57,992 nt of DNA from a virus. A model generated the notes under the pieces. The model saw only the letters and a list, made by a program, of their open reading frames with translations. It was not told the origin of the DNA and made no database searches. A program made the position numbers and the translations under genes. The stretch's first letter is position 1; every line of letters begins with the position of its first letter. Shown one piece after another: positions 5,001-54,331 of this stretch. The stretch lies in IMG/VR virus record IMGVR_UViG_3300033141_003442. One strand, 5' to 3'.

Positions 5001-8000
5001 CAAGAATTATCAAATTTAAAAAATAAAGTTCAAAAAGCATGGGATATTTTAAAAAAGAAATATCCTCAATATGCTAATAAAATTACTTCAATTACTATTC
5101 ATAGAATGTCCCCAGAAGATATAGCATTAGGTGGTGTTTCTTCTATTGGTAAGAAAGGAGATGTTATTGTTGACCCAACTCATGCTAAAACAGAGCCTAT
5201 GGAAACGCTTGCTCATGAAATGTTACATGCAACAGGAGCTACTGAAAAAGAAGCTCGTGCTTTTGAAAAAACTATATCTAAAGAAACTAAATTTTATTCT
5301 GGTATCCCTATTGATGAAATAGTTAAAACAGTCAATGAAACAACTAAGAAGGTTGTTGATTATATTAAACAAAAAAAGATTGAAAAAGTTGATAAAGCAG
5401 AAATAGAACATACAGATAGATTTCTTTCTTTTTATGCTAAACAAATACCTAAAGTATTAACTAGACTATATGAAAAAGAACACCTCAAAACAGCTCATCC
5501 AGAAACTGTTTATAGAGAGGCTTTAGGTGAATTACCTACTACTATGCCTGAAAAAGTTAAAAAGCCAATAGTTAATGCTTTGGATGCTTCAAGAGAACAC
5601 GATTATAAGCTTAGTGGTTATGAAATAAAAGTTAAAGAAAAATTATTAGGTAGTTACAATGCTATTTATAAAATATATGGCAAAAAAGGAATAAAAAGAT
5701 TTTTTGATTTACTTTCTGCTGAAGCACATAAACGCCATGCAATTAGTGAAAAACAGTTAAAAGAATTACCACCTGAGTTTCAATTAGCTTATAAAAGAAC
5801 AAAAGAATATTTATTAAACCCATTAAAAGAATATATGAAGTTTTTAGAAGAAAAATATCCTGAAGGATATAAAACAGAAGAAATGGCTAAAAAAGCATTA
5901 GCTGAAGTTGCAGAAAAGAAACAAATAGAAAATATAGAAAGCTTATATACTTTAAAACAAAATAAAGCCAACCTATTTTATTGGGAGAAAAACCCTAATG
6001 CTGAAAAAATAGCTAAAAAGAAATTACCTCAAATTATTACAAAATGGAATAAAGAATATCAAAAAGTAAAAGAGTTATTAAAACAGGCAGAAAAAGATTA
6101 TTTTTATCAACCTACTGTTAGAACTCATGAAGATATTATCCTTGTTCTTAAAAAACCTAAAAAAGAAGGTGCTAAATCTACCGTTGTAGGAGCTTTTGAA
6201 TTCCCTAATGAAAGGAAAGCTAAACAACAATACAATAGAATGCTTAAAGGTGATTATACAGCTATTCTTAATTGGTTTAGACGGGTAGGAGATTTAGAAG
6301 CTGGAAGAGATTTTGTAAATAACATTAAAAAGGGTGATTATACATTAAAGCTTATCAAATTTAAAACAGAGCCTACTTATACTCCTGAAGATATACCTCT
6401 ACAAAGTGTAATGGGCATTTTATCTAAATACAAAGGGAAACAAATCAAAGCTAAAAATCTTCAGGCTAAAGCTATTGCTGAAGATATACAGCGGTTTATT
6501 GAGAAGTTTGTTAATCCTATTAGTGTTAAAAGTTTTCATTTAGAAAAGAAGAATATCCCTGGATGGAGCTTAGACCCTCTTGATAGAAATGATATTTTAC
6601 TTAGAAGGGTGCTTTCTGAAAAATCTCTTATTGAGAAATTAAAACTTTCTGATGTTATAACTAATTCTTTTGCTCAAATAGACCCAGAACAACATCCACA
6701 ATATTATAAATGGCTTTCTGATTTTAATAAATATATGATGACGCCTAGAGAACCTGAAACTACTCGCCGTATTCTTTCTGCTTGGAGTATGTGGGGCAAT
6801 GCAATGTCTGTTATAGCTAATGCTACTCAGTCTTATATTTTAGGCCCCGCTGTAATAATAGAAAATAAATTAAATCCTGCTAAGTTTTTAAAATATGAAA
6901 CTGAGTATTTAAGAAAGTATATTGAAAGTGATTACGATAGTAAAGACTTAGCTTATCTTGAATGGGGAAAGAAAAACGGTGTATTTGCTCCTACAGCATG
7001 GAAAGAAGCTATGCTTGGTTTAACGGGAGAGAGAGGAGGAGTAATACCCAAGATAGAAGATATAGGTTATGCGGGATTTACTTTTGTTGAGTCTGTTAAA
7101 AACAGAATGAATACTTTTCTCTCTGTAGCTAAAATGCTTGAAGAAAAAGGAATGCCTTTTGAAGAAGCTATGAAAAAAGCTCGTGATATTACTTTTGATA
7201 TTCATTTTGATATGAATAAATGGAATACGTTGATTAGAAAGAAATATCCTAGATTATTTCAAACCTTAATGAGTTTTACATTTCATTCCTTTAAAACATT
7301 AAGAAGACTTATTTTTAAATCTTTTCCTTCTGCTAGAGAAAGAAAATATGCTATAGGTGCATTAGCTACTTTTTATTTAACTCATTTTTTAGTTGGCGGA
7401 ATGGCAGCTACTCCAGGCGGAGAACTTTTCTGGCAGATGGTTGATATTCCCTTTAAAAAAGTTTTTAGGCAATCTATAAAGACTTATTTAATGAATGAAT
7501 TTTCTGATAAAGAACGCAAAAAATTACGTTTGTTCATACAATATGGATTGTTGGGATTGGCAGGATTACCAAGTGTAGCAGATAGAATTGGATTTGGTTA
7601 TAGAGAAGTAAGTAAACTTAATAATTTTATAGCAGATGCAATGGCTCATTTAGCTCCTATTCCAGTAATGGTTGCTAATCAAGCTGTTAAAGCTATTAGA
7701 ATGACGCAAAAGGGATATTCTTGGCCGACTGCTATTTCTCAACAATTCTCTCCTACCGTTGTAAGGAATATTTCTAGAACGCTGTATGCAATTAAAAAAG
7801 GTTATTTGCCAACATCCTATGGTAAACCTCTGCAAGATATATATGGTAATAACTTTGTGCCTACTGGATTAGAAGAAATTGCTATGTCTTTTATTGGTGC
7901 AATTCCACCTGAACAACAAGAGATTTATGAAATTAAAGAAGCTCAAAGAAAAAAAGAAGATATAAGATTGGCTCACTTACACGATATTACTAATGATATA

Positions 8001-8324
8001 GTATTAGGATACCTTGATAAAGATTATGCACGAATAGGAAGAGGGTTTGCAAAATGGACAAAATATAATAAAGAAATAATTAAAAAGATAATTAAGGCAA
8101 AAAAAGAGAAAAGAAATGATTTAGCTCGCTTCTGGTCAACTCAGTTAATAGAGCAAAAAGCAGTTGAAACATCTATTAGAAATAGATTAGGAAGACATGA
8201 AAGTGCACCAAATTTGTTAATGATGAGCTGGTGGAAAAAAGGACAAAAAGGTTATGAAGAAGCTGTTAAAGTTATTCTCTTAAGGGAATATTTACGCAGG
8301 CTTAAACAAAGGTTAAGGAGGTAA
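2097..8324 (+). CDS. Giant protein (2075 aa): candidate tape-measure or ejected polyvalent virion protein with HExxH zincin-like motif
   Basis: Uninterrupted 6.2-kb ORF with SD; duplicated N-terminal motif PVDYDPF x2; K/E/P-rich low-complexity stretch; HEMLH motif (LAHEMLHATG); hydrophobic C-terminal segments. Confidence 0.6.
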   Translation: MPLTPVDYDPFKEEKQSSKKLTKKQKAKLVPVDYDPFASEKKQPEISAEKGIPQYLIPFSKYLGIEPTYVKPGSFLGNLLAVPHAFFEAGTTAFESPYYILKGLGKILRLPSLEKAGEWGIKGLEPTRRHHELMRKQLYVPPTSPTARLAHSISKKVAEAIGSFARPDLPVLVASPTAYGFLSGLETLGAGAPPTQALTAGIHGMIAGKTFEAVRGLSPMQALTRAGAVGATPEVARGLITGKPEQIGKGIEEGLSLGIFSALATIKTPLAREIYRNKVKAGVPREKALQTASLVEETIKSLDIDKAKSLPLKEKEIQKVEKIIREISKQIEDLPEVIKGKRGYKTEKGAKIGLRLFAKENKLPKDMDLTQHYNLEKDEAGNFVWRKITEKPTEIKPAIKPKEEVKPPEVEIPKEEKPPAKEIKEKVEEKPKKAKPYESVEPGSAEWMKIWKEHPELQKEMAEIRQKQIVEEGKKEEALPEAKPEKEPPKEKPPVVPLTKTLYENSYPIELSKASEVFPKHRLGVDYVVKLVDKNTGKVTWASLSEKRARELFPRSFEEKAKEVPKAEAEWQPVKDYSKEITEGTHVKWKYKGKEGEGIATGKTGRRKTGFVYHKVKTPEGKTKYMPWTPKAEYWIKAEKKVKPVKETKAEVKEKEPIIAISKREPNLQFEIDRIEGNKFIVKRPVIISTLKGEEGKIVETPDKYLIGREYPVENFRFVTPKEYVAEVKTKEAKIKAEREAQRETERKKQEEIKQALKAKPVTDKYYIYLKDKGFEEVEKAYPVKISGFEKYDLFAHKVGKKWKVSESKTGVAITKALPTRKEAIKQATEILNRHKEKSDEMIEDAIAYALSQTGISPRYKPISKEPTITQPKENLYEVRHPEKKTWYQIKEDPETEQWRVIKFEPYETIHEGQKVTVNKATETKFFKTLEEAKDFAQKGIIGKPVEVKISSFVKDAYLEEYGKEKGTQELSNLKNKVQKAWDILKKKYPQYANKITSITIHRMSPEDIALGGVSSIGKKGDVIVDPTHAKTEPMETLAHEMLHATGATEKEARAFEKTISKETKFYSGIPIDEIVKTVNETTKKVVDYIKQKKIEKVDKAEIEHTDRFLSFYAKQIPKVLTRLYEKEHLKTAHPETVYREALGELPTTMPEKVKKPIVNALDASREHDYKLSGYEIKVKEKLLGSYNAIYKIYGKKGIKRFFDLLSAEAHKRHAISEKQLKELPPEFQLAYKRTKEYLLNPLKEYMKFLEEKYPEGYKTEEMAKKALAEVAEKKQIENIESLYTLKQNKANLFYWEKNPNAEKIAKKKLPQIITKWNKEYQKVKELLKQAEKDYFYQPTVRTHEDIILVLKKPKKEGAKSTVVGAFEFPNERKAKQQYNRMLKGDYTAILNWFRRVGDLEAGRDFVNNIKKGDYTLKLIKFKTEPTYTPEDIPLQSVMGILSKYKGKQIKAKNLQAKAIAEDIQRFIEKFVNPISVKSFHLEKKNIPGWSLDPLDRNDILLRRVLSEKSLIEKLKLSDVITNSFAQIDPEQHPQYYKWLSDFNKYMMTPREPETTRRILSAWSMWGNAMSVIANATQSYILGPAVIIENKLNPAKFLKYETEYLRKYIESDYDSKDLAYLEWGKKNGVFAPTAWKEAMLGLTGERGGVIPKIEDIGYAGFTFVESVKNRMNTFLSVAKMLEEKGMPFEEAMKKARDITFDIHFDMNKWNTLIRKKYPRLFQTLMSFTFHSFKTLRRLIFKSFPSARERKYAIGALATFYLTHFLVGGMAATPGGELFWQMVDIPFKKVFRQSIKTYLMNEFSDKERKKLRLFIQYGLLGLAGLPSVADRIGFGYREVSKLNNFIADAMAHLAPIPVMVANQAVKAIRMTQKGYSWPTAISQQFSPTVVRNISRTLYAIKKGYLPTSYGKPLQDIYGNNFVPTGLEEIAMSFIGAIPPEQQEIYEIKEAQRKKEDIRLAHLHDITNDIVLGYLDKDYARIGRGFAKWTKYNKEIIKKIIKAKKEKRNDLARFWSTQLIEQKAVETSIRNRLGRHESAPNLLMMSWWKKGQKGYEEAVKVILLREYLRRLKQRLRR

Positions 8325-9544: not shown

Positions 9545-10815
9545 ACCCCTTTTTTACGGAAGGGGCTTTATCAGTGAGGAATAATCCTCCTGATTTAGGG
9601 CAGGCTTACAAACTGCCCAGCCCAAGAAGGAACTTTTGCCTTCAAGGGCAAAGATAGCAAGATTTTTGGAGGCATTGTAATCAGCATGGACTTGATAGCC
9701 ACAAGCCTTACAACAAAAAACAGAACCATTACGATTAGAAGATTGAATATGGCCACACTTACTACATCTTTGAGAACTGTATTTAGGGTCAACAAACCAA
9801 ACATCAATACCCTCTTCAAGTGCTTTGTATTGAATATAATTTGGGAGTTTAGAAAATGCCCAGAGAGAAACTTTATGTTTTTCAGCTTTTCTCCATTTTT
9901 TTACACTTCCTCTAATACTATTAAGATTTTCCATAGCAATTACTTGAGCACCAATCCTTTTTGCCTTCTCAACAATTTGCCGAGAAATATTATGCAAAAC
10001 CCAGTTAACAAAGCGGTTTTCTCGCCCACTCATTCTCTTAAGCAAGAGATGGGCAGAGCGAGTGCCTTTCTTTTGGATTTTGCTTCTCCGTTCGGCAAAC
10101 TGTCTTCTTTTATCATTAAGCATTCCTGCTTTAAAAAATTTGCCTATAGAGGTTACAGCAATATTCTTAACTCCCAAATCAACTCCCATAACAGTTTCAG
10201 GTTTTCTAACAAGAGCGGGTTTAATTATTGTAATATTAAGAAAGAAATCTTTGCCATTATAAGAAAGTGTAGCAGTCCTAAATTCATAATTTGTATTATC
10301 AAGTATTTTCTTTTGATAATCTCCAAGAAGATATTTGGCTTTTACTCTACCATTTACAGTAGAAAAAGTGCATTCTCTATTTTTAATAGTTACAGTTCTT
10401 TTATCAAGTTGAATTGCAGAAAAAGGCCTGAAGGTTGGTTTAGTTGCTTTTCTCTTTTTACTCCAATTGATAACACAAAGTTTAACCGCATCACAAGCTT
10501 TATTCCGAGCAGAACATATCAAATTAGCTTGAAGATTGGTTTGCTTTTTAAGTGGATAGTAAACAAGTTTATGGAGTTTAGATTTATTGATTATCTTCTT
10601 TTCAGGCTTCCATGCTTCATTTATGCAAAAATTAAGAGCAAAATTATATTGTCTAAAAGTTTCAAGAACATCTTGCTTTCTTTCTTGTGGAATATCCAGT
10701 TTTACTTTACAAGTCTTGATTATTTTTCTCATCGTGGTAAAATTATATCATGTTTATCTGAAATGTCAAGAAAGGAGTAAAAAGGCAATTCCTCCCCACC
10801 CTTACGGATGGGGTC
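9545..10815. mobile_element. Putative IS200/IS605-family (IS1341-like, tnpB-only) insertion bounded by similar subterminal hairpins
   Basis: Hairpin CCCCTTTTTTACGGAAGGGG at 9546-9565 and CCCCACCCTTACGGATGGGG at 10794-10813, same orientation, flanking tnpB; no tnpA present. Confidence 0.45.
9554..10732 (-). CDS. tnpB: TnpB-like RNA-guided endonuclease (IS200/IS605 OrfB family)
   Basis: 392 aa; RuvC-I (GVDLGVKNIAV), RuvC-II (IAMENLNS), zinc finger CSKCGH...CCKACG, RuvC-III (HADYNASKNLA). Confidence 0.85.
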   Translation of the reverse strand: MRKIIKTCKVKLDIPQERKQDVLETFRQYNFALNFCINEAWKPEKKIINKSKLHKLVYYPLKKQTNLQANLICSARNKACDAVKLCVINWSKKRKATKPTFRPFSAIQLDKRTVTIKNRECTFSTVNGRVKAKYLLGDYQKKILDNTNYEFRTATLSYNGKDFFLNITIIKPALVRKPETVMGVDLGVKNIAVTSIGKFFKAGMLNDKRRQFAERRSKIQKKGTRSAHLLLKRMSGRENRFVNWVLHNISRQIVEKAKRIGAQVIAMENLNSIRGSVKKWRKAEKHKVSLWAFSKLPNYIQYKALEEGIDVWFVDPKYSSQRCSKCGHIQSSNRNGSVFCCKACGYQVHADYNASKNLAIFALEGKSSFLGWAVCKPALNQEDYSSLIKPLP

Positions 10816-10832
10816 TCCTTGCCTAATTCTAG

Positions 10833-11018
10833 ATGAACCAGCAAGAGATAGAAGCAAGAAGACTTACTACTTTAATCAAGCAGTGGGCAATAGAAATTAG
10901 GACTAGATGTTCTGAAACAGAAGACCCAGAAGAGTGCAAAAGACTTATAGAACAATTACTTAAAGCATGTGAAAAGTTTGAACGGTTGATAAATTTAATT
11001 GGATATTTTAAAAATTAA
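10833..11018 (+). CDS. Hypothetical protein (61 aa)
   Basis: ORF immediately after the putative IS left end; no clear SD. Confidence 0.3.
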   Translation: MNQQEIEARRLTTLIKQWAIEIRTRCSETEDPEECKRLIEQLLKACEKFERLINLIGYFKN

Positions 11019-35777: not shown

Positions 35778-35828
35778 TTTAATTCCCTAAAAATAAAAAA
35801 CCCACACAGACAGAACAAGACTTTTTTG

Positions 35829-35894
35829 ACATGGTGAAAGGCCAAGGTGTCTTGCTTGTCCGTGCGGGCTTGGTTTCAAAATGCCTTTCACCAT
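35829..35894. promoter_or_regulatory. 12-bp perfect inverted repeat (ATGGTGAAAGGC ... GCCTTTCACCAT) with 40-nt GC-rich spacer, just downstream of a candidate minus-strand promoter
   Basis: Arms at 35831-35842 and 35883-35894; candidate promoter TTGACA-N17-TAAGAA at 35904-35932 (minus); related GC-rich motifs CCGTGCGGGC / CCCGTGCAGGC. Confidence 0.45.
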
Positions 35895-36012
35895 ATTGAT
35901 TTATTCTTACCAGATTATTTTTAACTTGTCAATATCAAAAATGCCTACACAAGCAAACAGGTGAGAAAGGGAGGAGAAAAGGTGGGACCTGTCTGCCCGT
36001 GCAGGCTGTGAT

Positions 36013-42588: not shown

Positions 42589-42857
42589 TTTGTTCTCCTT
42601 TTCACAAGCAATTTAGTCAAGCCGTCCTCTGCACCATCAACTTGCTTTCTTCTTTGTTCTTCCCTAATTTCTGCCTGTAAATAATAAATAGCACTTTCAA
42701 TATTATTTAATTCTCTTTGTTTAGCTACCTCAGTCATCATAGTATGCGATTTTTCTAATATTTCTTTTGTTTTTAGCAATCTTTGTAAAGTTTCTAATTT
42801 CCCCATTTCAAGCCCTCCTTTCAAAATAAAAAAGCCCGATGCTCCATAAAGGAACAC
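42585..42857 (-). CDS. Hypothetical protein (90 aa)
   Basis: ORF track. Confidence 0.4.
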   Translation of the reverse strand: MFLYGASGFFILKGGLEMGKLETLQRLLKTKEILEKSHTMMTEVAKQRELNNIESAIYYLQAEIREEQRRKQVDGAEDGLTKLLVKRRTK

Positions 42858-42893
42858 CGAGCCTAAATTTTTAGGGTGGGTGCTTAATTATTC

Positions 42894-46059: not shown

Positions 46060-46125
46060 TAGGCAGATGGGGGGGTAGGAAAAGGCAGGGGTGAGGGGCG
46101 TTATGAGGGGGTTATATTCCCACCT
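46060..46125. other. G-rich tract cluster followed by a C-rich partially complementary segment (potential G-quadruplex or strong hairpin)
   Basis: gatgggggggtaggaaaaggcaggggtgaggggcgttatgagggggttat then tcccacctcactctccacgcc; stands out in an AT-rich genome. Confidence 0.4.
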
Positions 46126-46141
46126 CACTCTCCACGCCATG

Positions 46142-46347: not shown

Positions 46348-47352
46348 ATGGCAGATTGGAAACCTGGGAGTTCAATGTATGCAAAGAGGTATGCCACATC
46401 TACCTTTATTGAATATAAGACTGGTATTTGGTGGGACAAGCATGGATATGTGGGGAAGGATGAGAACAATGTAATACAGTTAATAGAGGATTTCACGAGG
46501 GAACCTGGTAATAGTATGAGGTTTTATTTGACTATGGTGCCTGAAGGAGACCCGATTGTTGATGATGATACCTTAGAAGGCAACGAGATGAATATTACCA
46601 ATTACTATCAGGACGTAACGCTTCATGAGTATCGTGGTGGTATTCGTCTTTATGGTAATATGGAAGAGAAGGCGGTTGCCTTTAATATGAGGGAGACAGC
46701 GAGGAGAGTATTAGGAATTTGGAAGAGGCAGGAAACGGGTGATGCTATATTTAGTGCATTAGCCAGTTCTCCGACCAAGGTTATATATGGTGGGGATGCT
46801 ACTTCTACTTCTACTTTAGAGTCTAGTGATTTATGCAATCTTAAGCTTTTATTGCATGCTGCTACTTATGCGGAAAGTGTAGCTGACCCTCGTATTCCTC
46901 CGTTAATAATAGATGGTGAGGAGAAGTATATAGTTATTTTGCACAAGCATTGTTTATCTGATATGCAGTTATATGATAGTGATTTTCGTGCATTAGGGCA
47001 GAGTGTATATCAGAGAAATAGTGATAATCCTTTGATTAAGAGGGCTGCTTTTGTTTACAATAATCTTATTGTTTATTCTACTGATAAGATACCCACTGCT
47101 GATAATTGGGGTTCTGGCGGTGATGTTCATGGAGCTACCAATTTATTGCTTGGTGCTCAAGCAGCTCTTTTAGGTAGGGGCAAGACCAAAGGTGGAGTTA
47201 TTCCTCAATTTGATTGGAGAGAGCAGACTTGGGATTATGGGCATAAATATGGTATTGCTGTTGGTGAAACCAGAGCATTAGCCAAGACTGTTTTTAATTC
47301 CAAGGACTTTTCTACTGTAGCTATTAGGACTGCTGCTAATAGTTATGCTTAA
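46348..47352 (+). CDS. Probable major capsid protein
   Basis: 334 aa; very strong SD (TATAGGAGGTAAAGAAAG-ATG); first gene after the late promoter; size typical of capsid proteins; not verified by search. Confidence 0.45.
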   Translation: MADWKPGSSMYAKRYATSTFIEYKTGIWWDKHGYVGKDENNVIQLIEDFTREPGNSMRFYLTMVPEGDPIVDDDTLEGNEMNITNYYQDVTLHEYRGGIRLYGNMEEKAVAFNMRETARRVLGIWKRQETGDAIFSALASSPTKVIYGGDATSTSTLESSDLCNLKLLLHAATYAESVADPRIPPLIIDGEEKYIVILHKHCLSDMQLYDSDFRALGQSVYQRNSDNPLIKRAAFVYNNLIVYSTDKIPTADNWGSGGDVHGATNLLLGAQAALLGRGKTKGGVIPQFDWREQTWDYGHKYGIAVGETRALAKTVFNSKDFSTVAIRTAANSYA

Positions 47353-48729: not shown

Positions 48730-49149
48730 ATGGCAACTGATAGTTATTTTTTAAAACATTGCAGGACAAATTTACAAGTAGGGGCAGTTGAGGGTAATTG
48801 TCTTTGTTATGTAGATACCAGTGAACATAATCTTGCCAGTGGAGATACCTGCCCAGTGCTTTATATTCCTGAGAATTGTCTTGTTAGGCGTGTTACTGTG
48901 ATAAATGTTACTGCTGAAGGTGCGGCTGCTACCCTTAAAGTAGGTGATGGTAGCGATGATGATGGTTGGGATACCGATGCTAATGTGAACTCTGCTGGAA
49001 CGATTACCATTGGTGATGGTGCTTATGCCAGTGCTAATGGGAAAATATATGCTTCAGCGGATACAATTGATGTTATTCCAAGCACTGATTTAGACCAAGC
49101 TACTTTTTGGGTAATAGCAGAATTTTTCAAACTGCCTGATAATGATTAA
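48730..49149 (+). CDS. Hypothetical structural-module protein (139 aa)
   Basis: ORF with SD AAAGGAGG. Confidence 0.5.
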   Translation: MATDSYFLKHCRTNLQVGAVEGNCLCYVDTSEHNLASGDTCPVLYIPENCLVRRVTVINVTAEGAAATLKVGDGSDDDGWDTDANVNSAGTITIGDGAYASANGKIYASADTIDVIPSTDLDQATFWVIAEFFKLPDND

Positions 49150-49155
49150 GTTTTG

Positions 49156-49216
49156 TTGGGGAATAAGGTATAAAAAGTGTTGATTTTTACCCATTAACTT
49201 CTGCCTTATTCCCCAA
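49156..49216. other. 13-bp perfect inverted repeat (TTGGGGAATAAGG ... CCTTATTCCCCAA) with 35-nt loop inside the late operon
   Basis: Arms 49156-49168 and 49204-49216, followed by TTTTAAAAT; candidate attenuator, terminator or RNA element. Confidence 0.45.
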
Positions 49217-49237
49217 TTTTAAAATAGGAGAAGTTAA

Positions 49238-49882
49238 TTGTCTCAAGTATCTACTATAATTCAATATATTGGGGATGAATTAGGGCAGGGTATAACAATA
49301 ACTTCTACTTCAAGACCTTCTACCGCAGAGATTATAAGGCGGATAAATAGAACAACCAAAACTTTTGCTAAAATTCTTGCTCAATACCAGAGTGATTTAT
49401 CTAGAGAAGAAGGCACTATAACAACTATTGCTGGCACGGCAGAATATGCTGATTTAGCAAGTGAAATGTTAACTCCAGATGACACAGCTTATTATATAGA
49501 TGGAGATAGTAAAGTTCCTATTTATAAAAAAAATTACCAAGAAATTCTTTATTTACCAACTGATTCTGCTGCACCTTATTACTTTTATGTAACTAAAAAC
49601 AATCATATAGGATTTTATCCTACTCCAGATGATACTTATACAATAAAAGTGCCGTATTGGCATATTGGAAAAGAAGTTTCAAGTGAGAATGATGATATGC
49701 CATTTAAAGGAATGTTAGATGATATTTATGTGGAAGCTATTGTAAGACGGCTTTTGAATAGAGATGAATTTAATGTTGATTTTGAAAGTAAATGGTTACA
49801 GTTTGTAACTATGAATATATTAAGCACACTTAACTTAAGGAGAGAAAATTTAACACAATTAGGGAAGAATGACTACTTATGA
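49238..49882 (+). CDS. Hypothetical structural protein (214 aa, TTG start)
   Basis: ORF with SD GGAGAAG before TTG. Confidence 0.45.
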   Translation: MSQVSTIIQYIGDELGQGITITSTSRPSTAEIIRRINRTTKTFAKILAQYQSDLSREEGTITTIAGTAEYADLASEMLTPDDTAYYIDGDSKVPIYKKNYQEILYLPTDSAAPYYFYVTKNNHIGFYPTPDDTYTIKVPYWHIGKEVSSENDDMPFKGMLDDIYVEAIVRRLLNRDEFNVDFESKWLQFVTMNILSTLNLRRENLTQLGKNDYL

Positions 49883-51483
49883 GCATACGGTCTTCTAAAC
49901 ATCAAGGACAAACATATATATTTATTAAAAAATTTAAAGGAGTAAATATTGCCAATAGTCCTTGGTATGTAAGTGAAGAAGATGTTGGTTCTCTTTCAGT
50001 AGGAACTAATGTTATTTTTGATAGAAATGGGGTTTTAAGAACTCGCTACGGTTTAACTCAAAAAACTTCCACTGCTTTATCAAATCCGATAGATTGTATT
50101 CATTATTTTATATATGATAAAGTAAATAATAAAAAACAATATTTAGTTACTTCAGGACATAAATTATATAAAGTCGTTCAAGGCACTACAGATTGGTCAT
50201 TTACTTCAATAGGAAATTTAACAGGAACTAATCGCCCTACTATATTTTCTTCAGAAGCTTTATTTAATGGCAAAGCTATTATAGCTTCTGGAGGTAAATT
50301 ACAATCTTATGATTATACTAATTTAGAGACTATAACAGGTGTGAGTTTACCAGAGTTTACCAGTGGTGATGGAACGCTGGACGATTTAAGTGCTCAGGGA
50401 ACTTATACAGGCTCTGCTGATTATACAGATTATGTAGTTAAAATAGATGCTAAGGGTAGTCCTGATACTTTTAAATGGTCTGATGATGGTGGTGATACTT
50501 GGGAAGCTACAGGAGTAAGTATTACTGGTGATTGGCAGGATTTAAATAATGGTATTCAAATTAAATTTGATAACACTACTGGGCATGAAGTAGATGATTA
50601 TTGGACTTTTAGGGCTTATTACGCTCCTAAAGCAAAATGGGTAATAATGCAAACAGCCTCTTTAATTGTTTCTGGAGATTCAAATAATCCAAGTTATGTA
50701 TATGCCAGTGGAGTAGGAGATGAAACAGGATGGTATACAGATAATCCAGTTAACTGGGCAAAGCGTATAGATACAGGAAATGTTATTGGATTAACTTCAG
50801 TTGGTGATTATGTTATTGCTTTTTGCCGAGACCCAGAAGAAATAAATTTATTAGATTTTATTGATTGTAAATTACGCCAGTTAGTTAAAGGTGTATCTGC
50901 AATAAATCATTATTCTATTGTTACTATTGGCTCGTTTGTTTTTATTATTGATAATGATGGAATAAAACAAATTGCTTTAGGACGGTCAACAGGTAAAGGT
51001 AGATTAAGTGACCCTATAGGAGAAAATTTTGTTTCTCCAGATGAAGACCATGCTTTTGCTTTTTATTATCCTCCACATGCCCAATTATGGTTTATTTTTG
51101 AAAACTCAAATTATGCTTGGTGTTATCATGTTATACATAAAGCTTGGACTAAATTAGTTTTCCCAATTACTATAACATCAGCTTATTACAATCCAGATGC
51201 CCAAGAGCTTATTTTAGGTGGGAATGATGGGCATCTTTATTTATATGACCCTGATAATTTTATAGAAAGTTTTGATGTAGAAATAATTACCAAATTCTTT
51301 GAAGCAGACCCTCTTAATGAGGCTTTATATGATGTATTGGAATATACATTTGAAAAATTAAGACCAGGAACTATTACAGCTTATGCTGTTGATGAATTAG
51401 AAAATGAAACTGAAATCGGCTCTACTACATTTGGTGGTTATGGTAGAGGAACTTATGGAAGTAGTAATTATGGAGAAGGATAG
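49879..51483 (+). CDS. Hypothetical tail/baseplate-like structural protein (534 aa)
   Basis: Long ORF with start/stop overlap to neighbours; Gly/Thr/Ser-rich. Confidence 0.5.
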   Translation: MSIRSSKHQGQTYIFIKKFKGVNIANSPWYVSEEDVGSLSVGTNVIFDRNGVLRTRYGLTQKTSTALSNPIDCIHYFIYDKVNNKKQYLVTSGHKLYKVVQGTTDWSFTSIGNLTGTNRPTIFSSEALFNGKAIIASGGKLQSYDYTNLETITGVSLPEFTSGDGTLDDLSAQGTYTGSADYTDYVVKIDAKGSPDTFKWSDDGGDTWEATGVSITGDWQDLNNGIQIKFDNTTGHEVDDYWTFRAYYAPKAKWVIMQTASLIVSGDSNNPSYVYASGVGDETGWYTDNPVNWAKRIDTGNVIGLTSVGDYVIAFCRDPEEINLLDFIDCKLRQLVKGVSAINHYSIVTIGSFVFIIDNDGIKQIALGRSTGKGRLSDPIGENFVSPDEDHAFAFYYPPHAQLWFIFENSNYAWCYHVIHKAWTKLVFPITITSAYYNPDAQELILGGNDGHLYLYDPDNFIESFDVEIITKFFEADPLNEALYDVLEYTFEKLRPGTITAYAVDELENETEIGSTTFGGYGRGTYGSSNYGEG

Positions 51484-51498: not shown

Positions 51499-53004
51499 AT
51501 GGCAAGGTTACCAGTAATTGGTCAAGATGAAGATAGCTGGGGTGGTATTTTAAATGAGTTTTTACAAGTAGGACATTATGAAGATGGAACATTAAAGAGT
51601 GGATTAGGAGCATATTCAGCAATTGTTTATATTGATGGTAGTTCTGTAATTGCAAGGGATTATAAAGGCGATTTGATTGCTTCAGGCACAGCAGGCACAG
51701 ATGATTACTCTGTATTACAGGCTGCTATAAACAATCAATCAGGTCTAATCAAAGTTATAAGTGATTTGACTTTGACTAATAAAGTAGAACCTGCAAGCAA
51801 TATAATTTTAGATTTCCGTGGGCAGACTATAAAATCTGCCTTTACTAATGCCATCATTCAAAAAACAACTACGGGTAATGATATTACTATAATTGGAGGG
51901 ATTTTTGATTCTCAAAACAGCTATGCCACTCCAATTGCCTTTTACAATATAACTAATTTGAGAATAATTGATGTAGAGGTTAAAGATGTCAATGTTACAG
52001 ATGGTGGATATGGGATATACATTGAGGATTGTGATTATGTTTGGATAATAAATCCAAAAATCTCAAATATAACTTCAAGAGATGGATTACAATTCAAGGG
52101 CGTGCATAATGGTTGGATTATCAATCCTTATGTGAATTCGGCTTCTATTTATGGGATTGATTGCCATGCTTCCACAACTCCAAGATATTGTGAGGATATT
52201 TATATTGTTAATCCTAAAGTTTATAACTCTCAGAATGGAATTCATCTTGCTGATACATCCTTTCATTTAATTAATCCCCGAATTACTGGGTCATCTGCTA
52301 ATGGATTGACCATTGATGGTGATGGAACTGTAGTATATATAATTTCTCCTTACATTTATAATTCGGGTCAAAATGGTATTAATACTTACGATGCTACTAG
52401 TATAAGCTTTCTTCAGGTGATAGGTGGTGAAATAGATACGACGGGAGCAGATAAGGATGGAATGTATCTTAAGAACATAACTAAGACAAAAATTGAGAAT
52501 ATTTTTATTCATAATGCAGGAAGATATGGAGTGAATGTTCAGAGTGATAATATTGATATTAGTTTTGCTGAAATAAAAGATTGTGGTAATCATGGTATTT
52601 TCATTGGAGGAAAAAGTCATACTCGTATAATCAACAATGTCATTAAAAATAATGGAGGATATGGCATTCTTGAATACACTGGTAGCGATAATAATGTGAT
52701 AGAATTGAATGAATTTAGCGGTAATACTTCTGGTGCTGTTTCTAAGGTTGGCAGTAATACTAAAGTGCAAAATAATATTGGTTATGTTACCGAAAATGAA
52801 AGTTCAGCTACAATCACTAATGGCAATACCTCTGTAACGGTAAATCATGGCCTTGTTGATACTCCTACTAATATTCAGTTGACTGGCACTCATAGCGAAG
52901 TAAAAGATGCTTATGTTACAAACCCGGGTGCTACGAGTTTTGATATTACTGTAGATGCTGCAGTAACAGCAGACAGAACAGTTTATTGGAAAGCTAAGGT
53001 ATGA
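51499..53004 (+). CDS. Tailspike / tail fibre with right-handed beta-helix (pectate-lyase-like) repeats
   Basis: Recurrent beta-helix motifs (GGYGIYIED, NGIHLAD, NGLTIDG, NGINTYD, GRYGVNVQ, NHGIFIGG, GGYGILEYTG). Confidence 0.6.
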   Translation: MARLPVIGQDEDSWGGILNEFLQVGHYEDGTLKSGLGAYSAIVYIDGSSVIARDYKGDLIASGTAGTDDYSVLQAAINNQSGLIKVISDLTLTNKVEPASNIILDFRGQTIKSAFTNAIIQKTTTGNDITIIGGIFDSQNSYATPIAFYNITNLRIIDVEVKDVNVTDGGYGIYIEDCDYVWIINPKISNITSRDGLQFKGVHNGWIINPYVNSASIYGIDCHASTTPRYCEDIYIVNPKVYNSQNGIHLADTSFHLINPRITGSSANGLTIDGDGTVVYIISPYIYNSGQNGINTYDATSISFLQVIGGEIDTTGADKDGMYLKNITKTKIENIFIHNAGRYGVNVQSDNIDISFAEIKDCGNHGIFIGGKSHTRIINNVIKNNGGYGILEYTGSDNNVIELNEFSGNTSGAVSKVGSNTKVQNNIGYVTENESSATITNGNTSVTVNHGLVDTPTNIQLTGTHSEVKDAYVTNPGATSFDITVDAAVTADRTVYWKAKV

Positions 53005-53143: not shown

Positions 53144-54331
53144 ATGACTATTACGGACGGGAAAGGTGATTTAATTTATTCCAGTAGAGATTTAAAAAGA
53201 AAATTTCCAGAACAAGGTTTTTATAACCATATCAAAATTGATACTAGTGGTATAGTTTTAAGTAATAGTTGCCGTCCTTTTTTAGATATAGATGGGAATG
53301 CTATAAATGATGGTAGTATTCCTGATAGTAAAATAATAGATGTAGATTTTGCCAAAATAAAAAATGTTTTAATAGATACAGCACAAATTAAAGATGCTGC
53401 CATTACAACTGCTAAGATAGCCGACCTTGCCGTAACAAATGCCAAAATAGCAAATGCTGCTATTACTAATGCCAAAATAGCTAATTTAGCCGTAACAAAT
53501 GCTAAAATAGCTGACTTATCTGCTTCAAAAATCAATGCAGGATATATTGTTACTACTCAATTAGAGGCAGGTTCTAATCCTTCCACTGGATGTATTTTGG
53601 ACGGTAATGGTTTACGAGCCTATAAATCAGGCACAAAGATGGTGGATATAAGCGAAGACCCATTTTTTAGAGGTGTAGGGCATTTTGGGGATGATAATTT
53701 TTTTATAGAAATAGGGAATGATACTTATCCAGGATATATTTTGTTTGAAAAAGATAGTGAATACAAAACGCAGATTTATATAGCAGGGACAAATTATAAT
53801 GAGTTATATATTACTGCAAAAAGTAGAATACACTTTTTCCCTGGAAGCGCAGTGCGGTTTAGGGTCACTGATACAGAAAATATTTCAATCACTCTTCGTC
53901 CTTGGTCAGATGCCGCTTCTGACCTTGGAACATCCTCTTATGCATGGAACAATGTTTATTATTGTGTGGCAAATGATGTTTGCTCGCTTGGAGTAGTAGA
54001 AGAAATATCAAATCCACTTGAACTGCTTAAAAATATTAAGGTCAGTAAAGACAAATATACCCCAAAAGAAATCCCTAAGGCAGATTACAAAACTCTACCC
54101 AAATTTATTAAAACGGTAAAGTATAGTGATTTAAAAAAGAGTAAGAAAAACTTTAAAGAACATTTACAAAGCGTTTTATCTAAAAATGCAGAAGTAACTT
54201 ATGAGGATGATAAAAAAGTAACTGTAAAAATAGAGGCATTAGATATAACAGCAACAATAAGTCTATTATTAGGGGCTATAAGACAATTAAGTGAGAAGAT
54301 AGAAGCATTAGAAAGGGGTAATATACAATGA
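53144..54331 (+). CDS. Tail fibre protein with tandem A/T-K-I-A repeats
   Basis: Repeats AAITTAKIADLAVTNAKIANAAITNAKIANLAVTNAKIADL; C-terminal coiled-coil-like region. Confidence 0.55.
   Translation: MTITDGKGDLIYSSRDLKRKFPEQGFYNHIKIDTSGIVLSNSCRPFLDIDGNAINDGSIPDSKIIDVDFAKIKNVLIDTAQIKDAAITTAKIADLAVTNAKIANAAITNAKIANLAVTNAKIADLSASKINAGYIVTTQLEAGSNPSTGCILDGNGLRAYKSGTKMVDISEDPFFRGVGHFGDDNFFIEIGNDTYPGYILFEKDSEYKTQIYIAGTNYNELYITAKSRIHFFPGSAVRFRVTDTENISITLRPWSDAASDLGTSSYAWNNVYYCVANDVCSLGVVEEISNPLELLKNIKVSKDKYTPKEIPKADYKTLPKFIKTVKYSDLKKSKKNFKEHLQSVLSKNAEVTYEDDKKVTVKIEALDITATISLLLGAIRQLSEKIEALERGNIQ
53389..53520 (+). repeat. Tandem roughly 30-nt coding repeats in the tail fibre gene
   Basis: Repeated gccgtaacaaatgccaaaatagc-like units; these create the spurious antisense ORF 53221..53535. 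Confidence 0.65.

What the first reader, a model, noticed from the sequence alone, without database searches (positions are those of the whole stretch)
49156..49216. 13-bp perfect inverted repeat with 35-nt loop between late genes
TTGGGGAATAAGG and its exact complement flank a 35-nt AT-rich loop and are followed by TTTTAAAAT. The element is intergenic within the late operon, so it could be an attenuator or terminator setting the head-to-tail protein ratio, an RNase processing site, or a small RNA. It is structurally similar to the 12-bp repeat at 35831-35894.
Basis: seen in the sequence. Interest (0 to 1): 0.4.

Follow-up and report, generated by a model that had tools for sequence, protein, structure and literature searches.

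The report
Leaky terminator-like hairpin after capsid genes
A conserved RNA hairpin sits between a phage's capsid-cement gene and its first tail gene, and most likely cuts down or stabilises transcripts there so that more head than tail protein is made; this is an ordinary kind of phage control element.

Summary
Perfect 13-bp arms (49156-49168 / 49204-49216) flank a 35-nt loop and are followed by TTTTAAAAT.

The element fills the 88-nt gap between a 139-aa gene and the SU10-type head-to-tail adaptor gene. I show that the 139-aa protein has a jelly-roll capsid cement/decoration fold.

As RNA, the + strand folds into a 16-bp lower stem plus a 6-bp inner hairpin (-28.7 kcal/mol, z = -4.1). Only the + strand has a U run after the stem.

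In six natural variants (92-99% identical around it), the 12 core base pairs never change. By comparison, 23% of neighbouring 4-fold sites and 10 of 17 loop columns vary. Edge pairs change compatibly (U-A to G-C, G-U to A-U, U-G to U-A).

Across unrelated phages, 84% of gaps after homologous cement genes hold a stable hairpin, against 40% of other gaps.

Best reading: a leaky intrinsic terminator and/or 3'-end stabiliser that sets the head:tail mRNA ratio. It is atypical for a terminator, with a large loop, only four U's and a negative classical score. RNase processing remains a live rival.

It is not a demonstrable member of the int-alpA-like RNA that follows the capsid gene in distant relatives. 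Interest is low to moderate.

The parts
48730..49149 (+). Upstream gene, 139 aa: predicted jelly-roll capsid cement/decoration protein. Stop codon TAA at 49147-49149, 6 nt before the stem.
   Evidence: ORF list. Large family, 428 hits. AlphaFold model with alignment, pLDDT 94.5. Foldseek PDB hits to GP4 capsid chain, KHP30/KHP40 cement protein and Pam1 capsid chain. Homologues lie 10-60 nt after a major capsid gene in other phages.
49155..49170 (+). 5' arm of the lower stem. Core perfect repeat is 49156-49168 (TTGGGGAATAAGG). In RNA it extends by G49155-U49217, U49169-G49203 and A49170-U49202.
49171..49178 (+). Variable 5' side of the internal loop (substitutions and 3-5-nt indels among relatives).
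   Evidence: Alignments A3 and A12. 10 of 17 unpaired columns vary.
49179..49198 (+). Inner hairpin: 6-bp stem GUUGAU/AUUAAC with 8-nt loop UUUUACCC. The stem is invariant in all six variants.
49202..49217 (+). 3' arm of the lower stem. Core is 49204-49216 (CCTTATTCCCCAA).
49217..49225 (+). U4 tract (49217-49220) followed by AAAAT. The U4 is present in all variants and becomes U5 in L013.
   Evidence: Tail score 3.17.
49226..49240 (+). Shine-Dalgarno AGGAG (49226-49230) and TTG start codon (49238-49240) of the adaptor gene. Only 9 nt separate the hairpin from the SD, with no room for a promoter.
   Evidence: Conserved in relatives.
49238..49882 (+). Downstream gene, 214 aa: head-to-tail adaptor (Pfam SU10_adaptor PF24175, E 2e-14).
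49267..49288 (+). Sequence inside the adaptor ORF (ATTGGGGATGAATTAGGGCAG) that resembles the 5' arm. It pairs with the 3' arm when the 5' arm is blocked. Possible alternative pairing; significance unknown.
   Evidence: Constrained fold.

Best explanation
The element is an intercistronic RNA hairpin of the late (+ strand) operon. It most likely acts as a leaky intrinsic terminator whose product also carries a protective 3' hairpin. Its effect would be to lower tail-gene mRNA relative to capsid-gene mRNA.

Proposed sequence of events:
1. RNA polymerase transcribes the major capsid gene, three small genes and the cement gene. It is presumably the host enzyme: the phage shows sigma70-like promoters and a canonical intrinsic terminator, and no RNA polymerase gene was detected.
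2. Six nt after the cement gene's UAA, the 5' arm emerges, then a 6-bp inner hairpin that pre-organises the 35-nt loop, then the 3' arm.
3. The 14-16-bp lower stem closes directly against U49217-U49220, and a fraction of complexes release.
4. Termination should be partial, for three reasons. The U tract is only four residues. The stem has to close over a long loop. A ribosome stopping at the UAA would cover the first bases of the 5' arm.
5. Read-through transcripts carry the adaptor and tail genes, which have no promoter of their own in the 21 nt between the stem and the start codon.
6. Terminated (or processed) head transcripts end in a stable hairpin that resists 3' exonucleases.

Shown here: the structure, its stability, its strand specificity, its position between a high-copy head gene and a 12-copy adaptor gene, selection on the stem, and recurrence of hairpins at this position in other phages.

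Inferred: that termination occurs, that it is partial, and which polymerase is involved.
For: Structure and stability:
- The + strand folds at -28.7 kcal/mol, z = -4.08, 0 of 200 shuffles as good.
- The minus strand is weaker (-22.2) and is followed by CAAAAC rather than a U run.
- In a genome-wide scan for a hairpin plus U tail, it ranks 7th of 437. It is the only strong intergenic candidate on the + strand and gives the most stable hairpin of all + strand late-operon gaps.

Position:
- The upstream gene has a capsid cement-protein fold and the downstream gene is the adaptor.

Conservation in six natural variants (window, L205, L003, L011, L012, L013):
- 0 of 24 core stem columns vary, against 23% of 4-fold sites in the adjacent gene (P about 0.002).
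- 5 of 48 paired columns vary against 10 of 17 unpaired columns (Fisher P = 1.7e-4).
- Changes at the stem ends keep or improve RNA pairing. U-A becomes G-C in L003. G-U becomes A-U in L013 and L205. U-G becomes U-A in L013.
- The U4 tract is kept in all variants.

Positional analogues:
- After homologous cement genes, 41 of 49 gaps of 30 nt or more hold a hairpin of -15 kcal/mol or better. For other same-strand gaps the figure is 34 of 85 (P = 7e-7).
- Strict terminator-like sites: 22 of 66 against 37 of 256 (P = 0.001).
- U-rich tails: 13 of 39 distinct hairpins, against about 10% expected.

Host-type transcription signals in this genome:
- A canonical terminator on the minus strand at 42832-42864.
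- A TTGACA-N17-TAAGAAT promoter-like site.
- No RNA polymerase gene found by Pfam or PHROGs among the 28 ORFs scanned (the structural block and the largest ORFs), so most of the roughly 90 ORFs were not checked.

Established knowledge: leaky terminators with stepwise read-through shape structural operons of N4-like phage LUZ7, where more than 60% of terminators are under 50% efficient. The same paper states that inefficient terminators are known to balance expression in T7 (PMC9163698).
Against: It is not a textbook terminator.
- The loop is 35 nt. The promoter/terminator scanner, which allows loops of 3-8 nt, did not call it.
- There are only four U's before an A run.
- Energy density is 0.39 kcal/mol per nt, against 0.66 for the canonical terminator in the same genome.
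- The classical d-score is about -22, against +25 for that canonical terminator. The formula was recalled from memory.

Covariation alone is not significant. There is one double change among six very close sequences, and 192 of 500 shuffles do as well.

L012 has a G.A mismatch at the outermost pair.

Many hairpins after cement genes in other phages lack a clear U tract. The conserved requirement may therefore be a 3' hairpin rather than termination as such.

The comparison loci are not phylogenetically independent.

There are no RNA data, and the host and the polymerase are unknown.
Confidence: 0.5

Rival explanations
1. RNase III (or RNase E/Y) processing site and 3' stabiliser, without termination. 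The polycistronic late mRNA is cut in or next to the long irregular hairpin. The head segment keeps a protective 3' stem and decays more slowly than the tail segment.
For: The fold is a quasi-continuous helix of 16 + 2 + 6 bp interrupted by internal loops. This resembles the intercistronic RNase III sites of T7 (own knowledge). The U tract is short and the terminator score is negative. Many equivalent hairpins in other phages have no U tract. The stem is conserved while the loop drifts.
Against: U4 follows the stem directly and is kept in every variant. One third of positional analogues do have U-rich tails, well above expectation. No cleavage data exist. The host RNase repertoire is unknown.
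Confidence: 0.2
2. Translational device for the adaptor gene. The hairpin brings the cement gene's stop codon (6 nt before the stem) next to the adaptor SD (9 nt after it), which would allow termination-reinitiation coupling. Alternatively, it switches with a second pairing (3' arm with 49267-49288) that changes access to the start region.
For: The geometry is visible in the sequence. A constrained fold shows the 3' arm re-pairing with a 5'-arm-like sequence inside the adaptor ORF when the 5' arm is blocked. SD accessibility is only about 0.4-0.5 in both states.
Against: The SD is not sequestered by the main hairpin. The accessibility change between the two states is small (0.47 vs 0.38). The alternative partner is coding sequence, so its conservation is uninformative. 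No comparable arrangement was looked for in other phages.
Confidence: 0.08
3. A reduced relative of the pseudoknotted three-way-junction RNA (int-alpA-like, Rfam RF02996) that follows the capsid gene in the nearest, still distant, relatives. On this reading its role goes beyond simple termination.
For: My covariance models of that motif give the element as the top hit in the window. Model R1 scores 12.8 bits, E 0.034 in 14 kb. Model R2 scores 14.4 bits, E 0.12 in 58 kb. The outer stem (UUGGGGAAUA / UUCCCCAA against consensus ugGGcGGaUA / uCCgCCca) and the tail (…AUAGG) align. 'UAAAAAG' before the inner hairpin and 'CUG' after it recall the family's CGAAAAG and CUG.
Against: E-values are not significant, and only the outer stem and tail align; the interior is skipped. 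The Rfam model gives no hit even at E <= 10 on 251 nt. There is no P2 hairpin with a CUGGCY loop. No convincing pseudoknot partner exists, and the loop U-to-C change in relatives does not covary. The homologous slot (after the capsid gene, before the 178-aa gene that weakly matches the gene following the motif in L015) is a 17-nt gap in the window.
Confidence: 0.07
4. DNA-level element: a palindromic binding site for a phage or host protein, a recombination hotspot at a module boundary, or a miniature inverted-repeat insertion.
For: The arms are perfect and invariant. In L011 nucleotide identity jumps from 75-86% (cement gene) to 97-98% exactly at the element. This is compatible with a recombination junction.
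Against: The arm sequence occurs nowhere else in the window beyond chance. It occurs only on the same phage lineage in IMG/VR and not in 185,579 species genomes, so it is not a mobile repeat or a regulon operator. There is no target-site duplication. Two of the changes (G-U to A-U, U-G to U-A) make sense only at the RNA level. The strand-specific U run points the same way.
Confidence: 0.05
5. Chance inverted repeat with no function.
For: 17.5% of shuffled windows contain a 13-bp perfect inverted repeat with a spacer of 60 nt or less. The relatives are very close, so conservation has limited power.
Against: Fold z = -4.1. The location is intergenic in a 92% coding genome. No core stem column varies against 23% at neutral sites, while the loop varies freely. 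Hairpins recur at the same gene boundary in unrelated phages.
Confidence: 0.05

Closest known systems
Leaky intrinsic (Rho-independent) terminators inside phage structural operons, for example the stepwise terminators of N4-like phage LUZ7 (PMC9163698) and T7 T-phi after capsid gene 10 (own knowledge)
   Same: A stem-loop followed by U's, in the sense orientation, directly after abundantly needed capsid genes. Downstream genes depend on read-through. The presumed role is to balance transcript levels.
   Different: The loop is far larger (35 nt, partly folded into an inner hairpin) and the U tract shorter (4). The classical score is negative. There is no experimental 3' end. The polymerase is unknown.
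Intercistronic RNase III sites of phage T7 and intercistronic stabiliser hairpins of bacterial operons (own knowledge)
   Same: A long irregular helix with internal loops between cistrons of a polycistronic mRNA. A 3' hairpin is left on the upstream segment.
   Different: No cleavage evidence. The continuous lower stem is 16 bp, shorter than a typical two-turn RNase III substrate unless it stacks on the inner hairpin.
Rfam RF02996 int-alpA RNA, and the related pseudoknotted motif found here directly after N4-gp56-type capsid genes (L015, L018, L100, L101, L103, L106, L107, L118)
   Same: It lies in the gap after a head gene, a few nt past the stop codon and just before the next gene's ribosome-binding site. 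It has an outer stem of similar sequence enclosing an inner hairpin with a C-rich loop.
   Different: It lacks the P2 hairpin and the loop-tail pseudoknot. It fails the Rfam model and scores only E 0.03-0.12 with my models. It follows the cement gene, not the capsid gene.
Hairpins after capsid cement/decoration genes in other phages
   Same: Same gene family upstream, a gap of similar size (median 57 nt), and a stable hairpin starting a few nt after the stop. 84% of such gaps have one.
   Different: Most of those are short GC-rich stems with tetraloops (for example GGGGGGCUUCGGCCCCCC). The window's version is AT-richer, longer and large-looped, as might be expected in a 33% GC genome. There is no sequence homology between them.

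Membership tests
Intrinsic (Rho-independent) terminator | Stable stem-loop in the nascent RNA, in the sense orientation downstream of a gene | tested here: met
   -23.5 kcal/mol for the 61-nt domain, 13 perfect pairs including four consecutive G-C pairs near the base, 6 nt after the stop codon.
Intrinsic (Rho-independent) terminator | Short loop (about 3-10 nt) | tested here: not met
   The loop is 35 nt. An inner 6-bp hairpin leaves an 8-nt apical loop but with internal loops. The scanner that allows loops of 3-8 nt does not call it.
Intrinsic (Rho-independent) terminator | U-rich tract immediately 3' of the stem | tested here: inconclusive
   UUUU then AAAAU. Tail score is 3.17 against 4.31 for the canonical terminator at 42832-42864. 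U4 is kept in all six variants.
Intrinsic (Rho-independent) terminator | Passes a terminator discriminant (d'Aubenton-Carafa type) | tested here: not met
   d is about -22, against +25 for the canonical site. The formula was recalled from memory. TransTermHP, RNIE and ARNold were not available.
Intrinsic (Rho-independent) terminator | RNA 3' ends at the U tract and reduced downstream transcription | not testable with these tools
   No transcript data for this uncultured phage.
Rfam RF02996 int-alpA / post-capsid pseudoknotted motif | Scores at or above the Rfam gathering threshold (35.8 bits) | tested here: not met
   No int-alpA hit at E <= 10 on window 49050-49300. For comparison, L015 scores 39 bits.
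Rfam RF02996 int-alpA / post-capsid pseudoknotted motif | Three-way junction with a P2 hairpin (CUGGCY loop), CGAAAAG linker and a P3 whose C-rich loop pairs with a downstream GGG | tested here: not met
   The covariance models align only the outer stem and tail and skip the interior. There is no P2. A loop-tail pairing is not supported by the variants.
Rfam RF02996 int-alpA / post-capsid pseudoknotted motif | Position 3-8 nt after the stop of the major capsid gene | tested here: not met
   The window's capsid gene is followed by a 17-nt gap with no motif. The element lies four genes further on.
RNase III processing site (T7 type) | About two turns of mostly double-stranded RNA with an internal loop, between cistrons | tested here: inconclusive
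   16 + 2 + 6 bp separated by small internal loops, intercistronic.
RNase III processing site (T7 type) | Cleavage by RNase III | not testable with these tools
   Needs enzyme assays or end mapping.
Miniature inverted-repeat mobile element | Multiple copies and a target-site duplication | tested here: not met
   Single copy in the window. In IMG/VR the pattern hits only an identical copy of this phage. Absent from species genomes. No flanking direct repeat.

The most novel reading that the evidence does not exclude
The hairpin may be a stripped-down member of an undescribed class of 'post-capsid' structured RNAs. This class would include the pseudoknotted int-alpA-like three-way junction that starts 3-8 nt after the capsid stop codon in the nearest relatives. 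On this reading its job is not plain termination. It might, for example, bind polymerase, ribosome or a capsid protein to couple capsid output to tail-gene expression.
Probability: 0.08. Interest if true: 0.6.

Novelty: new member of a known kind. Interest (0 to 1): 0.25.

Why it matters
If correct, this is one more example of how a phage with a single long late operon makes hundreds of capsid and cement subunits but only a dozen adaptor subunits per virion. It would do so with a weak terminator or stabilising hairpin placed exactly at the head/tail boundary.

A stable hairpin follows the capsid cement gene in about 84% of phages that carry this gene family. A subset of N4-type-capsid podophages instead carries a conserved pseudoknotted RNA (an int-alpA relative) right after the capsid gene. 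Both could serve as annotation landmarks and as parts for tuning expression in engineered phages.

Tried and rejected
Searches that found nothing useful:
- blastn of 47-52 kb against 50,697 phage records: no match. tblastn with the portal protein: best cultured relatives only about 23% identical. No annotated relative can therefore be consulted.
- Rfam at gathering thresholds on the whole window: nothing. tRNA scan: nothing.
- Rfam in E-value mode on the element: only meaningless eukaryotic hits.
- Arm sequence elsewhere in the window: chance level.
- Pattern scan of IMG/VR: only an identical copy of the same phage. Pattern scan of species genomes: none.
- Adaptor protein search: only one 94%-identical cluster.
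- PDB sequence searches with the flanking proteins and with the cement-family profile: nothing.
- Single-sequence AlphaFold model of the 139-aa protein: useless, pLDDT 45. The alignment-based model worked.
- Exact look-up of the window's 139-aa protein: not on record.

Ideas considered and rejected:
- A promoter inside or after the hairpin. TAAAAT at 49220-49225 has no acceptable -35 and would start transcription downstream of the SD.
- Stop-codon read-through or frameshifting stimulated by the hairpin. Read-through adds only 7 codons, and there is no slippery site.
- Mobile inverted-repeat element. The element is single-copy with no target-site duplication.
- Homology to the int-alpA-like motif. 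It was tested with two covariance models and rejected as a membership claim.

A MAFFT alignment of L015 and L018 misaligned the 3' half of the motif. I therefore built the model from one sequence and realigned with Infernal.

Full report
**Observation.** The sequence is as described. TTGGGGAATAAGG lies at 49156-49168 and its exact complement at 49204-49216. The loop is 35 nt (26% GC) and TTTTAAAAT follows. The repeat finder reports it as the second-longest short-range inverted repeat of the window. It is the only perfect 13-bp inverted repeat with a spacer of 60 nt or less. However, 17.5% of dinucleotide shuffles of the window contain such a repeat. The repeat alone is therefore not strong evidence, and the case rests on what follows.

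**Context.** The window is a complete 57,992-bp contig of an uncultured podophage (NCBI GCA_054384015.1).
- It has no nucleotide match among 50,697 phage records.
- Its portal protein is only about 23% identical to those of cultured phages.
- The + strand from about 45.4 kb onwards is a structural operon. It contains the major capsid protein (46348-47352; Pfam Phage_capsid_3 and PHROG major head protein) and four small ORFs. These are followed by the SU10-type adaptor (49238-49882, PF24175), a 534-aa ORF (49879-51483), a beta-helix tailspike-like protein (51499-53004) and a fibre-like protein (53144-54331).
- The element fills the 88-nt gap between the fourth small ORF (48730-49149) and the adaptor gene. 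The adaptor gene starts with TTG, 7 nt after an AGGAG.
- No RNA polymerase gene was found among the 28 ORFs scanned, which were the structural block and the largest ORFs. Most small ORFs were not scanned.
- The genome contains a sigma70-like promoter-like site and a canonical intrinsic terminator on the minus strand at 42832-42864. Host-type transcription signals are therefore plausible.

**The upstream gene.** The 139-aa protein belongs to a large family of about 140-aa proteins, with 428 hits at E <= 1e-3.
- Pfam and PDB sequence searches see nothing.
- An AlphaFold model built with 35 family members is confident (pLDDT 94.5).
- Its best PDB matches are capsid-bound chains. These are a Ralstonia phage GP4 capsid chain (E 4e-5), the Helicobacter phage KHP30/KHP40 trimeric cement protein, and a cyanophage Pam1 capsid chain.
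- In 80 IMG/VR loci the family gene lies 10-60 nt downstream of a 300-350-aa ORF. That ORF is a capsid protein by Pfam in 7 of 10 tested.
- The gene is therefore a capsid cement/decoration gene, needed in hundreds of copies per virion, whereas adaptors are present in about 12 copies. The element sits exactly at the high-copy/low-copy boundary.

**Structure.**
- As RNA, the + strand folds into a lower stem of 16 pairs: the 13 perfect pairs plus G49155-U49217, U49169-G49203 and A49170-U49202.
- Above it are two A-U pairs and an inner hairpin with a 6-bp stem (GUUGAU/AUUAAC) and an 8-nt loop.
- The energy is -28.7 kcal/mol for 101 nt, z = -4.08, and no shuffle folds as well.
- The minus strand folds less well (-22.2) and is followed by CAAAAC, not U's.
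- In my genome-wide scan for a hairpin plus U tail, the element ranks 7th of 437. It is the only strong intergenic candidate on the + strand and gives the most stable hairpin of all + strand late-operon gaps.

**Relatives.** Only close relatives carry the element: L003, L011, L012 and L013 from JGI metagenomes and L205 from ENA. They are 92-99% identical around it.
- The 12 core pairs are invariant in all six sequences.
- The outermost pair is U-A in four variants, G-C in L003 (both sides changed) and G.A in L012.
- The G-U below the outermost pair becomes A-U in L013 and L205. The U-G above the core becomes U-A in L013.
- The inner hairpin stem never changes. The 5' side of the internal loop carries substitutions and 3-5-nt indels.
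- Quantitatively, 0 of 24 core stem columns vary, against 23% of 4-fold sites in the adjacent adaptor gene (P about 0.002). Also, 5 of 48 paired columns vary against 10 of 17 unpaired columns (Fisher P = 1.7e-4).
- The formal covariation test is not significant with so few, so similar sequences (192 of 500 shuffles).
- In L011 identity to the window jumps from 75-86% in the cement gene to 97-98% from the element onwards. In that lineage the stem's conservation is therefore tied to the downstream block.

**Positional analogues.** Across unrelated phages that carry the cement family (L125-L204):
- Gaps of 30 nt or more after that gene contain a hairpin of -15 kcal/mol or better in 41 of 49 cases. 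For other same-strand gaps of similar size in the same loci the figure is 34 of 85 (P = 7e-7). Median energy is -20.4 against -13.3 kcal/mol.
- Strictly terminator-like sites (hairpin plus U tail within 110 nt of the stop) occur after 22 of 66 cement genes, against 37 of 256 other genes (P = 0.001).
- Of 39 distinct hairpins, 13 have 4 or more T in the next 8 nt, against about 10% expected. Many others have no clear U tract.
- The loci are not independent and gene calls are crude, but the effect is large. A 3' hairpin after the capsid/cement block is a recurrent feature, and at least a third look like canonical terminators.

**Mechanism.** I commit to a leaky intrinsic terminator that also leaves a protective 3' hairpin (confidence 0.5).
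- Arguments for: strand-specific U4 directly after the stem, the position, selection on pairing, the analogues above, and the absence of any promoter in the 21 nt before the adaptor start. That absence forces read-through.
- Established practice in phages points the same way. In N4-like LUZ7, more than 60% of mapped terminators are under 50% efficient and produce stepwise read-through in the structural genes. The same paper states that weak terminators are known to balance expression in T7 (PMC9163698).
- Arguments against: the 35-nt loop, only four U's, low energy density (0.39 against 0.66 kcal/mol per nt) and a negative classical score (about -22 against +25, formula from memory).
- The main rival (0.2) is an RNase III-type processing and stabilising site without termination. 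It predicts the same outcome for head/tail mRNA levels.
- Lesser rivals: a translational coupling or switching device, a DNA-level site, and chance.

**The int-alpA lead.**
- In the nearest distant relatives (capsid protein 32-36% identical), the gap right after the capsid gene holds an outer stem enclosing inner hairpins.
- Rfam identifies L015's copy as int-alpA RNA (RF02996, 39 bits, above the 35.8 threshold). L018, L100 and L101 score about 29.5 bits.
- I built covariance models (R1, R2) and collected eight distinct copies. All start 3-8 nt after an N4-gp56-type capsid stop codon. Where the next start codon is clear, the modelled stretch ends 17-25 nt before it.
- They share the layout P1-UA-P2 (loop CUGGCY)-CGAAAAG-P3-CUU-P1'. 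The C-rich P3 loop is complementary to a downstream GGG-containing tail, with some covariation (UCCCG:CGGGA, CCCUC:GAGGG, CCCGG:CCGGG; read).
- The window's element is the top hit of both models in the window, but at E 0.034 and 0.12, and only the outer stem and tail align.
- Rfam's model does not hit it at all. It has no P2.
- The homologous slot in the window, before the 178-aa gene that weakly matches the gene after the motif in L015, is a 17-nt gap.
- Membership is therefore not met. I keep a reduced-relative reading at 0.07-0.08.

**Verdict.** This is a real, conserved, strand-specific RNA hairpin at the head/tail boundary of a late operon. It is most likely an attenuating terminator and/or 3' stabiliser, and so a new member of a known kind. 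Interest is 0.25.

Noticed in passing
L015:6462-6538, L018:6997-7068, L100:2763-2840(-), L101:813-893(-), L103:7096-7178, L106:9546-9624(-), L107:4206-4283, L118:1411-1496(-): A conserved three-way-junction RNA with a probable loop-tail pseudoknot starts 3-8 nt after the stop codon of N4-gp56-type major capsid genes. Where the next start codon is clear, it ends 17-25 nt before it. One copy passes the Rfam int-alpA (RF02996) threshold and three more score about 29.5 bits. That family is described as an sRNA near integrase/alpA genes, so a post-capsid location in lytic-looking podophages is unexpected. Most copies lack a U run, so it is not simply a terminator.
   Followed up: partly
L125-L204 (IMG/VR loci with homologues of window 48730-49149): The ~140-aa capsid cement/decoration family has no Pfam model hit. 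It sits directly after the capsid gene in many phages. It is followed by a stable hairpin in 84% of gaps of 30 nt or more, often GGGGGGCUUCGGCCCCCC. Other gaps show 40%.
   Followed up: yes
window 35778-36012 (minus strand): The intergenic region after the RecT-like gene holds several features:
- A 20-bp stem with a 24-nt loop followed by AUUUUUGA (36006-35943).
- A TTGACA-N17-TAAGAAT promoter-like site.
- A -36 kcal/mol hairpin followed by UUUAUUUU (35871-35798), just upstream of the next gene's SD.

This could be an antiterminator/terminator leader or a small RNA. The two long hairpins share an imperfect direct repeat (AGCCTGCACGGGCAGACAGG / AGCCCGCACGGACAAGCAAG).
   Followed up: partly
window 48730-49160 vs L011: Identity to relative L011 is 75-86% across the cement gene and 97-98% from the hairpin onwards. 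This is a sharp mosaic boundary at the element. The cement gene is either exchanged by recombination or evolving fast.
   Followed up: partly
window 49200-49217 with 49267-49288: The 3' arm can alternatively pair with a 5'-arm-like sequence (ATTGGGGATGAATTAGGGCAG) inside the adaptor ORF when the 5' arm is blocked. That pairing encloses the SD and start codon in a loop.
   Followed up: partly
window 46062-46138 (+), in the 411-nt gap before the capsid gene: A G-rich -24 kcal/mol hairpin (GGCAGATGGGGGGGTAGG...) lies upstream of the major capsid gene. The surrounding 45.3-46.1 kb is the least conserved stretch against relative L005 (50-72% identity).
   Followed up: no
window 2097-8324 (+): A 2075-aa ORF in the structural block has no Pfam hit and only one weak PHROG hit. 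No RNA polymerase gene was detected among the 28 ORFs scanned, although the capsid is of the N4 gp56 type.
   Followed up: no
window 42832-42864 (minus strand): A textbook intrinsic terminator: 14-bp stem, 5-nt loop, UUUUAUUUU, d-score +25. It shows that host-type terminators are used in this genome.
   Followed up: partly
L016:1864-3546 and L017:1864-3546: Distant relatives with an N4-type capsid carry an Avd-like gene (PF22296) next to a reverse transcriptase (RVT_1). This is the signature of a diversity-generating retroelement, located a few kb upstream of the capsid gene.
   Followed up: no
window 9554-10855: Two long ORFs overlap on opposite strands (9554-10732 minus, 9686-10780 plus), so the gene call is ambiguous. 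A GC-rich hairpin (CCCCAUCCGUAAGGGUGGGG) with a U run lies at 10756-10855 on the minus strand.
   Followed up: no
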